Shown: one piece after another, positions 169 to 42,692 of the stretch
Position numbering within the stretch: the stretch's first letter is position 1
Layout: every line of letters starts with the position of its first letter
From: the human T2T-CHM13v2.0 reference genome, Homo sapiens
DNA: 64,000 nt
NCBI GenBank assembly: GCA_009914755.4
Contig: CP086569.2
Coordinates: forward strand, 23,712,001-23,776,000
Direction: 5' to 3'
The notes under the pieces: generated by a model
What the model saw: the letters and a program-made list of their open reading frames with translations, nothing else
Databases searched by the model: none
What the model was told of the DNA's origin: nothing
Made by a program: the position numbers and the translations under genes

Positions 169-3100
169 TTACACTTAACAATTTCCAAATACAAAATAAA
201 CCTAAAGTAATCAAAGCACTTTGGTACCAGTATAAAAGTAGAAAAAGAAATTAATGAAGCTGAATGCAGCACAGAAATAAACTTTTGAATAGAGAGGAGA
301 GACATACCACCTAGATTTTTCATTCAACTATATGTCATAATTCCTTTGGTAAGCAGGACCCACGCAGGAGAGGAGAGTTACACCATTTAGATGCTAATTT
401 CTGTGATATTTCAAATTTTTTCTGGATGCAGAGAACAATCTGGAGAGACACATAACCTAGCTGATAGGCCAAGAGATATGTGATATTATACCCTCTTGAT
501 AGAGCTCAAGCAGAAAAATCACATTATTTTGATTCTAACCCAGTGATAAGTAGCAATGCACCCATGGAAAGAAATTTGAGCCAAAAAGTCTCAACACCTG
601 GGTACTAGACCCAGGGATACGACACAATCTCATCATCTTTGAGGGTGACAACTTTAACTTTTAGCTAAACTTGTATATTAGAGTGACAATCTCACATGTT
701 TGCTGGGACAATGCATGACCCTCTGCAACATCCAAGTGATTTATAAAACCTGCATAAGAGTTGCAAAGCTGTGTGAGGCCTATGTGGTGGTATGGGCTCA
801 CAATCTTACATATTAACCTAAACCCAGGTTTGATAGTCAAGATCTCTCCTTTAGGCAGGGTTAAGGAAGAAGACCCATTATTATTCCTGTGGGCTGGGTC
901 TAGAAATGAGTGACCATCCCACTTGTGGCCAGGACCACATATAAATGTCACAATTCCAACTTTGTGCTGCATTCCCTTATTAGACTCATGATCTCGACAG
1001 TGGCATTGTAAATGTGGGATGGTGATAACTTTTAATTTCACCTGGGTATGTAACATAGAGTCCCAATCTGAAGGTTTGGCTGGGCCCTGTTATGAAATTT
1101 TATATCAACAAAGAGTTTATATACTACAGGTTAGTGTTGGAAGCTTCTGTGAGGTTGTTACATATTTGCAACCGAGGACATTGTCTATTGCCCCAAGCCT
1201 AACAGTGAAAGGCAAAATATCTTCTATTGGCTGAATCCCAATATAAGTTTGAACATCATGTCTGTGAACTGAAGCAGGGTATATGTTATAATCCCATATG
1301 TGGACAAAAAGCTAGGCAGGAGGGTAACATCACTTAGATGTTGTGCCAAGCAATATTTCACAATGTCTTCTCTAGGCAGGGCATAGGGAATTTGGTCATA
1401 TTAACTGCATGCTGGACCCAGCAATATGACAACATCCCACATGTGGAAAAAACCCAGCCAAGTTATGAGAACCAAAACACCTGCATGAAGAGACCAAGAT
1501 ATGTCAAAATACGTTAGGTGGCTGCAGCACAGGAGGAAAGTCACATAACAATGGTCCTGGGCCGAGCAATATGCAATATTCCATAAGTTCCTCTATATGC
1601 AGAAGCAAGGCAGAAGAGTAACATCATCTGGGTGCCGGGCCCTGCTGTAGGCCAAAATTCCTGTTTTGCAGGAATGGCTTGGGAAAATGAGGAGAGTCAC
1701 ATAACCTGAGTGCTGGGCTCAGTAATGTGCCAAAATCCTCCTATTGTGAAGGTCCAGGCTGAAAAAGAGAGTCACATCATTTAGGTCATGGGCTCAGAGA
1801 TACGTCCCAATGTCCCCAGTAGTCAGGGCTTAGGCAAACAAGGAGAGTCATATCACCTATGTGCTTCCCTAGAAATATGTCACAGGGTAAAATATGGGCA
1901 GAACTTATGCAGAAGAGCCACAACCCCAGAGTGCTGGGTTCTGAGATATTTCACAAGGTTCTCTTAGGGCAGCACCCAGCAAAGATAGTTAGGTGCGGGT
2001 TCTCTGTTTATGCCACAATGCTCCGTGTGGCCTCCATGTACACAGGGCCCAAGGAGGGAGTCACTTCACCTAGATGATAGGCCCAGAGATATGTCACAAT
2101 GACCTCTATGAAGCATAGCCCTGGCAAAAGTGTACCATCACCTGTGTGTATGGCCTAAAATATATCATTGTCAAGGTTGGCAGGGCCCAAGCAGAAAAGC
2201 CACATAACCCAAAGATAGACCCAGAGACATGTCACAATATCCTTTTGTGGACATGTCTCAGACAAAAGAGTACCCTTCCCTGTGTCCGTGGCCTTGCAAT
2301 GTGTCACTATCTTTCCTTTGTTCAGGGCTCATTTTAGAGAAGAGAGTTACATAACTTATGAGATGGACACAGAAATATGTTACAATATGTTATTATTCAA
2401 GTGGGCGGATCCCGGGAGAGGAGCCATATCATCTCCATAATAGGCCTTTATGGTATGTCAAAATTCCCTCTTTTGGGCATGGCCCTGGAAAAAAACTCAT
2501 CACTTCTGTGCCTGGCCTAGGAATAAGTCACTATTCTGCCCTGTGTGCAGGGTCCATAAAAAAGAGGAGAGTATTGTCTTCTAAGTGATAGGCACAGAGA
2601 TATGTCACAAGAATATGACATCACCTGGGTGGGGATTCAGTGATGTCACAATCTTACTGAGAGCAGGGCCTCAGTACAATAGTGTGTACAATAGTCACAT
2701 TACTTCAAGTTTGACTCAGGTAGATATTAAAATTCCATATGTAGGCTGGAAACTGTCTGAAGAGTGAAATCACACAGGTGCTTGGCAAGATTTTATGCCA
2801 GAATAACGATGGAATTAAATTCTAGGGATGAGATGTAAAATAACACACGTGTCCTGTTTACCTGTAGGAGAGCTGCTTTCATCCATCTGTTATGATGATA
2901 GTCCTTACTGTCAACTGAGGGTGCATACAAGATTCACAATTTTCTCTGTGGGCTAGGACCTGTTATGACACTCTTTATACAAACCAAAGGTGGGATATCA
3001 TGTGTGGGTGTTGTCATGATCTGTGACCTTTTTACCAGAAGGTAAACCTGAACAACACTCATGTCCCAAAAATAGTTATTAGAGTCAAAATTTCTCCTAT

Positions 3101-4257
3101 TGTTTCCATTCACATATGAGAGTCATTATCATGCCTGTTAGCTGTGCCTAGGTATAGGTCACAATCCTCTCTCTGGTTATTAAACTGGCAGGACAAACAC
3201 CTCACCTAAATCCTGAGCCAGAAATATTTCAATATTTTCTTTAAAGGTAAGACCCTAACAGAAACTTCACAAAACTTGGGTGCTAGGCAAAGTTCTATGG
3301 CAAAATGGCCCTTGAGGAAAAAGTCCAGGCAGGAGAGGAGAGTCATATAACAAATGATTGACCCAATGATATGTCACAATGCCTCCTGTTGAAAGGCCCA
3401 GGCCAGAGAGTCATGTCATTTGGATGCCATGTTTAGAAATTCTACAGTCTTCACTGGATGCAGGGTTCAGGCAGGAGAGGAGAGTCACATAACCTGGATG
3501 ATGGGTACAGATATATGTTACAATCCCCTCTGAGGTCACTTTTAGACAGGGGAATCAAATCACCAAGGTTCTTGGCATAGGTTTACGTCAAAATGTAATC
3601 TGTGGGCTATAAGTAGGCATGGTTATTAAATCACATAGGAGCTGGACAATGGCATATGTCACAAAAACAACTGTGGAAAGGTTAAGAAATGAAAGTCACC
3701 ACCTTGCATGTGTCCTGGCTCCAGGTACAATTGTCATTATTAGGGTTTCGGTCTGGTCTCAGGTATATGGAACAGTATCACCTCTGGCAGGGAGAAGAAA
3801 GGAAAGTCACATCATTTGTGTGGGTGCTGGTCCAGTGAAATGTCACAATCCTACCTGTGGGCAGGACTGTGGGAGAAGAGTCTCTTCACCTGGATGCTGG
3901 TTTCAGTGATATATGCAAATCCCCCTTGTGGGCAAGGCTTAGGAAGAACAGTAGACAAACTTCACCTTGGTAATTGGCATGAATATGTGTCACAGTGGCC
4001 ACTATGTGAAGAACCAAGGCAGAAGTGTCACCTAATCTTGGTGCTGCATTCAGCAATATGTCACAATCTCTTTGGTGTTCAGGGCCCAGGCAAGAGAGAA
4101 GAAACATTACCCAGGTGCTGAGCCATGGGATATGTTAAAAAGCCCCCACAAAAAAGAGTCACATCACCTGGGTGCAGTGCCCAGTTATGTTTCACAATGC
4201 ATTGCGAGTTCAGGGCCAAGGTAGTAGAAGGAAGTTACATCACTTATGCAATGCACC

Positions 4258-4550
4258 TAGGCAGGCAGATCACGAGGTCAGGAAATCGAGGCCATCCTGG
4301 CTAACACAGTGAAACCCCATCTCCATTAAAATACAAAACAAAACAAAAAAATAGCCAGGTGTGGTTGTGGGCACCTGTAGTCCCAGCTACTTGGGAGGCT
4401 GAGGCAGGAGAATGACGTGAACCTGGGAGGCAGAGCTTTCAGTGAGCTGAGATCGCTCCACCGTGCTCCAGCCTGGGCAGCAGAGTGAGACTCCATCTCA
4501 AAAAAAAATAAGCAAAACATAAAAGAAAACAAAAAAGCCACAGTACTCTT
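4258..4550 (+). mobile_element. Alu element, 5'-truncated (starts about consensus position 40), with A-rich tail
   Basis: The sequence GGCAGGCAGATCACGAGGTCAGGAAATCGAGGCCATCCTGGCTAACACAGTGAAACCCCATCTC...GCCAGGTGTGGTTGTGGGCACCTGTAGTCCCAGCTACTTGGGAGGCTGAGGCAGGAGAATG...CCAGCCTGGGCAGCAGAGTGAGACTCCATCTCAAAAAAAAATAAG matches the Alu consensus. Satellite block C resumes at ~4,600. Confidence 0.85.
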
Positions 4551-41422: not shown

Positions 41423-41755
41423 GGCTGGGTGCGGTGACTCATGACTGTAACCCCAGCACTTTGGGAGGCTGAGGCAGGTGGATCATGAGGTGAGGAGATC
41501 GAAACCATCCTGTCTAATACGGTGAAACCCCATTTCTACTAAAAATACAAAAAATTAGCTGGGCATCGTGGCACACACCCCTAGTCCCAGCCATCTGGGA
41601 GGCTGAGGCAGGAGAATCCCTTGATCCCAGAAGGCAGAGGTTGCAGTGAACTGAGATGGCACCACTGCACTCCAGCCTTGGTGACAGAGTGAGAATCCAT
41701 CTCAGAAAAAAATAAATAAATAATAAAAAATAAATTAAAATAAATAAAATAAAAT
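41423..41755 (+). mobile_element. Alu element (full-length, A-rich tail with AAATAAA repeats) inserted in reverse-complemented block A of the satellite
   Basis: GGCTGGGTGCGGTGACTCATGACTGTAACCCCAGCACTTTGGGAGGCTGAGGCAGGTGGATCATGAGGTGAGGAGATCGAAACCATCCTGTCTAATACGGTGAAACCCCATTTCTACTAAAAATACAAAAAATTAGCTGGGCATCGTGG...CTCCAGCCTTGGTGACAGAGTGAGAATCCATCTCAGAAAAAAATAAATAAATAATAAAAAATAAATTAAAATAAATAAAATAAAATGG matches the Alu consensus. Confidence 0.9.
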
Positions 41756-42692
41756 GGATCTTCTCTTTTAACACTGCCTATAGGAGAGATGTTGAGCATC
41801 ATAACTCAGTTTAGGATGATAGGTAAGACCGTGAGTCCATATGAGCAAATAGGCCTCAGAGAGGTTTGAAACTCTCACACGGGTTTTATAAAGCCCTTAG
41901 ATGTTTTTGAGAGTGTAATACATTGGTCCAGCACACACGTGAGATTGTGACTCTAATATACATGCTCAGCTAAAGGTTAAAGTCATCCTCAAAGATGAAG
42001 GGATGGTGTCATATCACTGGCCTAGTATCGTGGTATTGAGACTTTTTGCCTCAAATTACTTTCCATGGGTGCATTGTTACATATCGCTAGGTCAGAATCA
42101 TAATAATGTGCCTCTTCTGCCTGGGCCCTGGTAACAGGGGATATAATCACAACTATCTGGGTCTATCAGATGCGTGGTTTGTCTCTCCTGCCTGTGCCCT
42201 GCCCCCAGAGAACATTTTGAAATACCACTGAAACTAATGTCCAAGTAATGTAACCCTCCTCTCTTGCCTGCATCCTCAGCCCAAAAGAATTGTGACATAC
42301 GGCTGAATGTAAAAGCTAGGTGACATATCTCTCCTCTCTATGCAAGAGTATATGTTTGTGCTGCATTCTATTTCATTACTTCGTATTCTACCTTTATTCT
42401 ACCAGTGCCAAAGTGCTTTGATTACTCTAGATTTTTGTATGTGTGTGTTTGGAAATTATTATGTGTAATGCTTCTAATATTTTTCTTCTTTTTAAAGTTT
42501 GTCAGGCTTTCCGTGGTCCCTTAAGATCTTACATAATTTTGTGAATTTTTTTCTATTTTTGGAAAACTCAAATTTAAAACTGAAAAGGGTCATGTTTTAT
42601 ATGTGGGTTACATTAAGCCACGAAGAAGCATGGACACATCACAATATTATGTCTTCCAACTCTTAAGAAGAGCATGCTCAAAATGTGTTGTT

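What the first reader, a model, noticed from the sequence alone, without database searches (positions are those of the whole stretch)
305..42340. A 42-kb beta-satellite-like array built from a ~4.9-kb higher-order repeat containing three deeply diverged monomer tracts
- Simple satellite arrays are usually homogeneous. Here the ~72-bp monomers are grouped into a higher-order repeat of roughly 65-68 monomers (marker-to-marker spacing 5,005 bp, 4,855 bp and 4,840 bp).
- Three stretches (blocks A, B, C; 0.55-0.75 kb each) are so diverged that they look non-satellite at first sight, yet they recur copy after copy.
- The monomer is also longer (70-75 bp) than the classical 68-bp beta satellite.
- Together this suggests an old, distinct beta-satellite subfamily or locus-specific array.
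- Later higher-order-repeat copies are irregular: there is a partial block A at 12,780 without a marker; markers at 18,190 and 20,055 are only ~1.9 kb apart; and in the minus array blocks A and C are missing between 36,650 and 39,200. This indicates unequal-exchange deletions and duplications.
Basis: partly seen in the sequence, partly recalled or inferred. Interest (0 to 1): 0.5.

Follow-up and report, generated by a model that had tools for sequence, protein, structure and literature searches.

The report
Ancient decayed beta-satellite-like repeat block
This is an old, heavily mutated block of beta-satellite-related repeats in a primate genome, built from a ~4.9-kb unit copied about eight times in two opposite orientations; it looks like a kind of block already described in the human 19p12 zinc-finger gene cluster, so it is real but ordinary.

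Summary
Window 305-42340 is a tandem array of ~71-bp monomers, on the + strand up to ~28.9 kb and on the - strand after that. A ~4.8-5.0-kb unit recurs about eight times, and each unit carries three tracts that do not look like monomers. A profile built only from classical 68-bp, Sau3A-bearing beta-satellite contigs fetched elsewhere hits the array 191 times, once outside it, and 0-1 times in shuffles. The array is therefore beta-satellite-related. It is not classical beta satellite: the period is 71/76 bp, GATC occurs 0.15 times per monomer, GC is 42.5%, and unit copies are only 67-81% identical.

New details:
- The three tracts are copies of one another and have a 38-bp period.
- The two outer units and 150 bp of flank were duplicated in inverted orientation.
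- 8.3 kb of the 42 kb is inserted Alu, LTR and L1 sequence, which explains part of the irregularity.

The architecture matches my recollection of the abstract of Eichler et al. 1998 on 19p12. That paper could not be read, and the window's location could not be tested. No coding or RNA function was detected. Novelty is low.

The parts
143..304 (.). Left non-satellite flank. It is duplicated in inverted orientation at 42341-42494.
   Evidence: Self-blastn 143-885 vs 42494-41748, 77%. Sequences read.
305..28890 (+). Plus-oriented arm of the array (~71-bp monomers, about 5.3 unit equivalents). It ends inside a block C.
   Evidence: Anchor and profile hits on the + strand only. Sequence at the switch read.
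305..5329 (+). Unit U1 (5025 bp, including a 279-bp truncated Alu).
   Evidence: Reference unit. Offset 4999 to U2.
620..1300 (+). Block A of U1: a 38-bp-period tract holding two copies of the ~340-bp block core. Approximate limits.
   Evidence: Profile-negative at 970-1280. A 98-368 and A 437-825 both match block B. 38-bp rows shown.
2640..3370 (+). Block B of U1 (38-bp-period tract). Approximate limits.
4560..5300 (+). Block C of U1 (38-bp-period tract). Approximate limits.
4260..4538 (+). 5'-truncated Alu with an A-rich tail, inserted in U1.
   Evidence: Sequence read. It matches other Alu copies at 41472-41728, 42888-43021 and 63815-64000. Profile-negative.
5330..10158 (+). Unit U2 (4829 bp, about 68 monomer lengths).
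10159..12194 (+). Unit U3, truncated after ~2.05 kb.
   Evidence: Maps to unit positions 6-2051.
12207..12790 (+). Displaced 0.58-kb piece homologous to unit positions 3057-3626.
12797..17967 (+). Unit U4. It starts in mid-block A (unit position 676) and carries a solo LTR.
16722..17692 (-). Solo LTR, 971 bp, flanked by AAAAGG on both sides. HERV-K/LTR5-like, identified from memory only.
   Evidence: Sequence read. No monomer hits. No Pfam hit for its ORF.
17968..19724 (+). Unit U5, truncated after ~1.6-1.8 kb.
   Evidence: Maps to unit positions 41-1618. Marker at 18205.
19725..28890 (+). Unit U6. It is split by an L1 and lacks unit positions ~1580-2596.
20066..25799 (-). L1 insertion (5.7 kb) with a target-site duplication TGGAAAAGAATTTA.
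   Evidence: Duplicated flank read. 83.5% identical to the L1 at 43505-48667. Weak RVT_1 hit, E 3.6e-05, 24 bits, below the 29.6-bit gathering cutoff.
28891..28934 (.). Point where monomer orientation switches from + to -.
28935..42340 (-). Minus-oriented arm, about 2.7 unit equivalents. It comprises M1 29266-34072, a partial unit 34267-36782, a partial unit 37829-38382, and M3 38289-42322.
   Evidence: In the trees M1 groups with U2 and the outer part of M3 groups with U1.
36783..37775 (.). A ~1-kb non-satellite insert with LTR-like ends. Unclassified.
   Evidence: Sequence read. Profile-negative at 36797-37788.
41432..41757 (+). Full-length Alu inserted in M3.
42341..42494 (.). Right non-satellite flank, the inverted copy of 143-304.

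Best explanation
This is a relic, non-coding satellite block related to beta satellite. It was produced by successive rounds of tandem and inverted duplication and has since decayed.

Inferred order of events:
1. A ~35-38-bp repeat gave 38-bp tracts and 71/76-bp two-half monomers.
2. A sub-unit of one 38-bp tract plus a run of monomers was triplicated into a ~4.9-kb unit (blocks A, B, C).
3. The unit was amplified in tandem, presumably by unequal crossing-over. The oldest copy pairs have K2P ~0.35-0.43.
4. A later wave (K2P ~0.22-0.24) duplicated whole or partial units. It included an inverted copy of the two outer units together with 150 bp of flank, which gave the block its symmetrical ends.
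5. Homogenisation then stopped. Copies drifted apart, suffered deletions, and were invaded by two Alus, two LTRs and an L1.

The anatomy and the relatedness are shown. The order, the mechanism and the age (tens of millions of years) are inferred. The block most likely belongs to the inverted beta-satellite blocks that separate ZNF91-family genes in human 19p12. Any present role there would be sequence-independent: heterochromatin, or a substrate for non-allelic recombination.
For: Relation to beta satellite. Fourteen independent contigs are pure 68-bp arrays with about one GATC per monomer. A profile built from them hits the array 191 times, once outside, and 0-1 times in shuffles.

Unit structure and copy relations.

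Block paralogy and the 38-bp period.

Inverted duplication. U1 groups with the outer M3 and U2 with M1 at 77-81.5% identity, against ~70% for other pairs. The flank is shared as well.

Insertions that post-date the array. The L1 has a target-site duplication. The solo LTR is flanked by AAAAGG. Alus.

No coding or RNA signal. The array ORFs have no Pfam hit, Rfam gives no hit, and CpG observed/expected is 0.12.

Literature. [quoted passage not shown] Beta satellite is reported in 19p12. RepeatMasker BSR/Beta elements are enriched at chr19p12 and co-localise with ZNF genes.
Against: - The chromosomal location was not testable.
- No zinc-finger or KRAB remnant lies in the 64 kb. This is compatible with the ~150-180 kb spacing I recall for 19p12 genes but gives no support.
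- Eichler et al. 1998 could not be read, so whether it reports a ~4.9-kb unit is unknown.
- Divergence-based ages are rough. Alignment error in repeats and gene conversion would distort them.
- The mosaic relations are not resolved into a unique history. For example, the first 2 kb of M3 is U1/U4-like and its next 1.8 kb is U4/U6-like.
Confidence: 0.85

Rival explanations
1. It is a classical, actively homogenising beta-satellite higher-order-repeat array of an acrocentric short arm or pericentromere, which is the placement the first reader expected.
For: The monomers are related to the 68-bp beta-satellite consensus, and a multi-kb unit exists.
Against: - Unit copies are 67-81% identical rather than near-identical.
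- The period is 71/76 bp, not 68.
- GATC occurs 0.15 times per monomer, against ~1 in classical contigs.
- TRF cannot detect the array.
- Five transposable-element insertions lie inside it, and ordinary interspersed repeats flank it.
Confidence: 0.04
2. It is the same kind of ancient beta-like block but lies somewhere other than 19p12, at another interstitial locus or in another ape genome.
For: Nothing in the window ties it to chromosome 19. No ZNF sequence is present. The tools hold no primate genome.
Against: The held literature that names a non-pericentromeric beta-satellite locus names 19p12. From memory of the 1998 abstract, blocks there are ~25-30 kb, inverted and symmetrical. That fits the 33.8 kb of satellite here, its two inverted arms and its matching ends.
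Confidence: 0.2
3. It is not a satellite relative at all. It would be a tandemly duplicated ~4.9-kb segment (a gene or pseudogene, or the internal repeats of a transposon) whose likeness to beta satellite is chance.
For: The blocks look non-satellite, and TRF finds no array.
Against: - There are 191 hits to an independent beta-satellite profile, against 0-1 in shuffles and 1 in the other 22 kb.
- Periodicity is 71/76 bp throughout.
- The blocks themselves are 38-bp repeats related to the TGTCACAAT half of the monomer (p~2e-4).
- The ORFs have no Pfam hit.
Confidence: 0.02
4. The array is maintained for a sequence-specific function, for example a binding-site array or a non-coding RNA gene cluster.
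For: BSR/Beta elements at 19p12 are transcribed when H3K9me3 is perturbed. The motifs GTCACAAT and GTCACATCACC are the best-kept parts of the monomers.
Against: - Copies have diverged by K2P 0.22-0.43, with truncations and deletions.
- Rfam finds no family.
- Insertions are tolerated.
- The kept motifs are also the family consensus, so they are expected without selection.
Confidence: 0.05

Closest known systems
Inverted beta-satellite blocks of the 19p12 KRAB-ZNF (ZNF91-family) cluster (Eichler et al. 1998, Genome Res 8:791; RepeatMasker BSR/Beta at chr19p12)
   Same: It is beta-satellite-related and forms a block of tens of kb outside classical heterochromatin. It has two inverted arms with a symmetrical higher-order structure, it is old, and primate retroelements interrupt it. 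The figures '25-30 kb, inverted, remarkably symmetrical, ~50 Myr' are recalled from the abstract and were not read here.
   Different: No difference was shown. Location and flanking ZNF genes could not be checked. I could not verify whether the ~4.9-kb unit, the three paralogous tracts and the 38-bp period have been described.
Classical beta satellite (Sau3A family, BSR; 68-bp monomer; pB3/pB4-type higher-order repeats on chromosomes 1, 9, Y and the acrocentrics)
   Same: The monomer is homologous: consensus identity is 84%, and AGATATGTCACAATGCC, CTGT.GGCAG.GCC and GAGT.ACATCACCT are shared. Both are arranged head to tail and grouped into multi-monomer units.
   Different: - The period is 71/76 bp against 68.
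- The Sau3A site is replaced: GTGCTGGGCCCAG in place of GTGATCAGTGCAG, with 0.15 against ~1 GATC per monomer.
- GC is 42.5% against 46-49%.
- Monomers are ~73% identical to their consensus, against 88%.
- Unit copies are 67-81% identical.
- 38-bp tracts are present.
Alpha-satellite monomeric or diverged higher-order-repeat layers flanking active centromeres
   Same: The life history is the same: an array once amplified by unequal exchange, no longer homogenised, diverged, and invaded by L1, Alu and LTR elements. This comparison rests on general knowledge.
   Different: The sequence family is unrelated (171 bp). The comparison concerns mechanism only.

Membership tests
Classical beta satellite (Sau3A/BSR) | Monomer sequence homologous to the BSR consensus | tested here: met
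   A profile from 127 monomers of 14 independent 68-bp arrays gave 191 hits in the array (64 at E<=1e-3), 1 outside, and 0-1 in shuffles. Consensus identity is 84%.
Classical beta satellite (Sau3A/BSR) | 68-bp monomer (definition) | tested here: not met
   Median spacing is 71 bp, with modes at 70-71 and 75-76. Only 9 of 239 spacings are 68 bp. The reference contigs give 68-69 bp.
Classical beta satellite (Sau3A/BSR) | Sau3A (GATC) site in nearly every monomer | tested here: not met
   0.15 GATC per 71 bp in the array, against 0.4-1.35 (mostly ~1) per 68 bp in the reference contigs.
Classical beta satellite (Sau3A/BSR) | Relatively G+C-rich | tested here: not met
   Array GC is 42.5%. Reference contigs are 46-49% and the reference consensus is 50%.
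Classical beta satellite (Sau3A/BSR) | Multimeric higher-order repeats whose copies are homogeneous | tested here: not met
   A ~4.9-kb unit exists, but copies are only 67-81% identical.
Classical beta satellite (Sau3A/BSR) | Pericentromeric or acrocentric short-arm location | not testable with these tools
   No primate genome is available. The flanks are ordinary L1, Alu and ERV sequence.
19p12 ZNF-cluster beta-satellite blocks | Block of tens of kb of beta-satellite-related repeats | tested here: met
   The span is 42.0 kb, of which ~33.8 kb is satellite after removing ~8.3 kb of inserts.
19p12 ZNF-cluster beta-satellite blocks | Inverted arms with a symmetrical higher-order structure | tested here: met
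   The + arm runs to ~28.9 kb and the - arm follows. The outer units and flanks are each other's closest relatives.
19p12 ZNF-cluster beta-satellite blocks | Lies between ZNF91-family genes on chromosome 19p12 | not testable with these tools
   The window has no C2H2, linker or KRAB motif and no long ZNF ORF. The literature places BSR/Beta blocks among 19p12 ZNF genes.
19p12 ZNF-cluster beta-satellite blocks | Ancient origin (early primate; about 50 Myr from memory of the 1998 abstract) | tested here: inconclusive
   K2P between copies is 0.22-0.43. This implies tens of millions of years at primate neutral rates, but the calibration is rough.

The most novel reading that the evidence does not exclude
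The block may preserve a proto-beta-satellite state. Its 38-bp tracts and its 71/76-bp monomers, read as two related halves of 33-38 bp, would show that the 68-bp Sau3A monomer arose by dimerisation of a ~35-38-bp repeat. On that reading, this old interstitial lineage would be the closest surviving relative of the ancestor of all classical beta satellite, and not a degenerate offshoot.

Support so far:
- The two halves of the window monomer align better than shuffles (p~8e-4).
- The two halves of the classical monomer do so weakly (p~0.02).
- Classical arrays show autocorrelation peaks at lags 33 and 35.
- The 38-mer matches the TGTCACAAT half (p~2e-4).

A search of the held papers found nothing on subrepeats of beta satellite.
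Probability: 0.2. Interest if true: 0.4.

Novelty: already known. Interest (0 to 1): 0.2.

Why it matters
The practical value is small. It shows that a striking 42-kb 'satellite with strange blocks' is a relic array of a described kind, so it does not need follow-up as a new element.

Three points may be useful to people who study satellite evolution or the 19p12 ZNF cluster:
- The hierarchy of periods, from 38 bp to 71/76 bp to a 1.1-2-kb sub-unit to 4.9 kb to an inverted ~10-kb duplication, is an unusually legible record of stepwise satellite growth.
- The divergence between copies implies that this lineage predates the hominoid expansion of classical 68-bp arrays.
- The block is a long inverted repeat that could promote rearrangement.

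Tried and rejected
- Tandem Repeats Finder on the whole window found no array, only a 139-bp dimer at 7074-7343. The copies are too diverged, so it is uninformative for the 4.9-kb claim.
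- Reading Eichler 1998 and Waye & Willard 1989 by DOI, PMID or PMC id failed; neither is held.
- Searching papers for monomer sequence strings gave either nothing or unrelated primer matches.
- An exact 12-mer offset histogram did not give a simple 4.85-kb comb. It is dominated by the younger non-adjacent copy pairs, so I replaced it with gapped alignments.
- Monomer-by-monomer identity separates homologous positions from other positions only weakly (0.73-0.75 against 0.69). Long collinear alignments are the decisive evidence.
- The Rfam scan gave no hits.
- Pfam on ORFs inside the array gave no hits.
- A six-frame scan for C2H2, TGEKP-linker and KRAB motifs found none.
- A tandem diagnostic pattern for window-type monomers does not occur even within the window. 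I therefore did not run a metagenome scan for paralogous blocks, as exact-match scanning would be too insensitive.
- A literature search for known subrepeats of beta satellite returned nothing relevant.

Full report
**What the window is.**
The window is hominoid-type primate DNA.
- It opens with the 3' end of an L1.
- It contains Alus.
- It contains two long L1s, whose ORFs hit the L1 RBD/trimerisation domains and reverse transcriptase in Pfam.
- An ERV with a Gag_p30 ORF follows a tandem-repeat-bearing LTR at 60.9-63.6 kb.
- Rfam finds nothing.
- There is no long zinc-finger ORF and no C2H2 or KRAB motif.

**The monomer array.**
- Base autocorrelation in 305-20080 and 25795-42340 peaks at lags 70, 71 and 76, with secondary peaks at 36/38 and ~146. 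The L1 and distal controls show no such peaks.
- A monomer profile iterated from 47 seeds gives 390 hits in the array, 297 of them at E<=0.01. It gives no hit at E<=0.01 elsewhere in the window and none at E<=1 in a shuffled array.
- Its consensus is TAATATGTCACAATGCCCTCTGTGGGCAGGGCCCAGGCAGAAGAGTCACATCACCTAGGTGCTGGGCCCAGAAC.
- Adjacent hits are spaced at a median of 71 bp, with a major mode at 70-71 and a minor one at 75-76.
- Hits are on the + strand up to ~28.89 kb and on the - strand from ~28.93 kb.

**Is it beta satellite?**
No repeat library was available, so I obtained an independent reference.
- I scanned the prokaryotic genome collection for two ATATGTCACAAT motifs 62-76 bp apart. This returned 15 loci.
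- Fourteen of them (L002-L015) are short, low-coverage contigs made entirely of 68-69-bp tandem repeats with about one GATC per monomer. That matches the literature definition of beta satellite: 68 bp, with a Sau3A site in nearly every unit. These contigs are evidently human contamination.
- Their consensus is GATCAGTGCAGAGATATGTCACAATGCCCCTGTAGGCAGAGCCTAGACAAGAGTTACATCACCTGGGT.
- A profile built only from 127 of these monomers hits the window array 191 times at E<=1, and 64 times at E<=1e-3. It hits once outside the array and 0-1 times in five shuffles.
- The two consensus monomers are 84% identical.

The relation to beta satellite is therefore established. The array nevertheless fails the features that define the classical family:
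- The period is 71/76 bp, not 68.
- GATC occurs 0.15 times per monomer. The site region reads GTGCTGGGCCCAG where the classical monomer reads GTGATCAGTGCAG.
- GC is 42.5%, against 46-49%.
- Individual monomers are ~73% identical to their consensus, against 88% in the classical contigs.

I therefore call it a diverged relative of beta satellite. RepeatMasker would very probably label it BSR/Beta, but it is not classical Sau3A beta satellite.

**The ~4.9-kb unit.**
- Self-blastn gives collinear alignments of 1.3-4.8 kb at offsets 4999, 4850 and 4808 on the + arm and 4931 and 4809 on the - arm. It also gives many inverted alignments between the arms.
- Mapping everything onto unit 1 yields U1 305-5329, U2 5330-10158 and U3 10159-12194 (truncated). 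A displaced piece lies at 12207-12790.
- U4 12797-17967 starts at unit position 676. U5 17968-19724 is truncated. U6 19725-28890 is split by an L1 and lacks unit positions ~1580-2596.
- In reverse orientation lie M1 29266-34072, a partial unit at 34267-36782, a partial unit at 37829-38382, and M3 38289-42322.
- A 19-base marker recurs at 580, 5580, 18205, 25815, 33792(-) and 42050(-), six matches against 0.04 expected.
- Any tandem array aligns to itself in shifted registers, so I tested purely monomeric tracts of U1. They align over long stretches (0.57-1.1 kb, 232-890 bits) only at the homologous place in other units. Out-of-register hits are <=270 bp and <=82 bits. The super-period is therefore real in the monomer runs and is not carried by the odd blocks alone.
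- It is a relic, however. Copies are 67-81% identical (K2P 0.22-0.43). At the level of single monomers, homologous positions are only slightly more alike than random pairs (0.73-0.75 against 0.69).

**The three blocks.**
- Each unit has three stretches where the monomer profile finds nothing. In U1 these are 970-1280, 2963-3153 and 4857-5251.
- I aligned the 4-7 copies of each block and took consensus sequences.
- The three consensus blocks are homologous to one another over 330-430 bp at 69-75% identity, with E from 1e-37 to 1e-65. Block A holds two copies of the ~340-bp core.
- Within the profile-negative stretches the dominant period is 38 bp (z=10.7 against shuffles), with harmonics at 76, 113 and 151.
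- Written in rows, the blocks read as repeats such as AGTCACAATCTCAACAATGAGCAAGATCCATGTATAAG.
- A 38-mer profile hits only the array: 90 hits, against 0 in shuffles. It matches the TGTCACAAT half of the 71-bp consensus (p~2e-4).

They are a distinct 38-bp-period tract type, and the 4.9-kb unit is itself a triplication of 'tract plus monomer run'.

**History.**
- Neighbour-joining trees for four segments of the unit agree. U1 groups with the outermost inverted unit and U2 with the inner one, at 77-81.5% identity. Most other pairs are ~70%.
- The 150 bp of non-satellite sequence left of the array (143-304) is also present, inverted, to its right at 42341-42494.
- An inverted duplication therefore copied the array edge plus two units. 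This is why the block has matching ends.
- Other relations are mosaic. The first 2 kb of M3 is U1/U4-like and its next 1.8 kb is U4/U6-like, which suggests further exchanges.
- At primate neutral rates, K2P of 0.22-0.24 for the young wave and 0.35-0.43 for the old one imply tens of millions of years. This is an inference and the calibration is rough.

**Insertions that came later.**
- An L1 lies at 20066-25799 with the target-site duplication TGGAAAAGAATTTA.
- A 971-bp solo LTR lies at 16722-17692, flanked by AAAAGG. It looks like HERV-K LTR5, from memory only.
- A ~1-kb LTR-like insert lies at 36783-37775.
- There are two Alus.

Together these make up ~8.3 kb of the 42 kb.

**Comparison with what is known.**
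- They state that beta satellite occurs in 19p12.
- They state that RepeatMasker BSR/Beta elements are enriched at chr19p12, co-localise with ZNF genes and lie in H3K9me3 chromatin.
- From memory, the abstract of Eichler et al. 1998 describes ~25-30-kb inverted beta-satellite blocks with a remarkably symmetrical higher-order structure bounding ZNF genes, dated to ~50 Myr. The paper is not held.

The window fits that description closely, but I could not place it on a chromosome.

**Verdict.**
- The object is a known kind of sequence in a fully annotated genome, with no sign of coding or RNA function.
- The 38-bp tracts, and the hint that the beta monomer is an old dimer, are the only points that might be new. 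I could not check them against the primary literature.

Noticed in passing
Loci L002-L015 (for example BMRF01000120.1 Actinomadura cremea JCM 3308, BMUF01000116.1 Streptomyces malachitofuscus, NZ_JACLYU010000126.1 Bifidobacterium pullorum, JACQXV010000153.1 Woesearchaeota MAG): Fourteen species-representative bacterial or archaeal assemblies contain short, low-coverage contigs made entirely of classical 68-bp human-type beta satellite. This is almost certainly human (or ape) DNA contamination in public prokaryotic genomes.
   Followed up: partly
Array monomers window-wide; loci L002-L015: The beta-satellite monomer looks like an old dimer. The window halves AGTCACATCACC... and TGTCACAATGCC... 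align better than shuffles (p~8e-4). The classical halves do so weakly (p~0.02). Classical arrays show autocorrelation peaks at lags 33 and 35.
   Followed up: partly
window 20066-25799 (-) and 43505-49686 (+): Two long L1 elements in opposite orientation, 83-86% identical, about 18 kb apart. One is inside the array and one just beyond its right end. Together they form a second large inverted repeat around the minus arm.
   Followed up: no
window 19940-20048: A 34-bp motif (ACATTATTATGATTCTGAACCATTTCTGAACCATGTA) repeated three times lies immediately upstream of the L1 insertion site. It is a local tandem duplication inside a monomer of unit U6.
   Followed up: no
window 60538-63557: An LTR with 79-bp and 103-bp internal tandem repeats (60538-60687, 60906-61287) is followed by an ORF with a Gag_p30 domain (63147-63557). 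This is an endogenous retrovirus, LTR12/HERV9-like from memory.
   Followed up: partly
window 143-304 and 42341-42494: The duplicated non-satellite flank (…AATCAAAGCACTTTGGTAC…GAATGCAGCACA…) resembles a very old LINE-1 ORF2 fragment, from memory only. If so, the array may have grown inside or beside an ancient L1.
   Followed up: no
window 43017-43065; 55727-55847; 56662-56771: An (AC)24 microsatellite. A 61-bp x2 tandem duplication. A 55-bp x2 duplication inside an Alu-like sequence.
   Followed up: no
L001 6626-6704 (CAVSCG010000002.1, deltaproteobacterial MAG): The only non-satellite hit of the two-motif scan. It is a chance match on a 135-kb bacterial contig that also carries a 102-bp x13 in-frame-looking tandem repeat at 2455-3784.
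   Followed up: no
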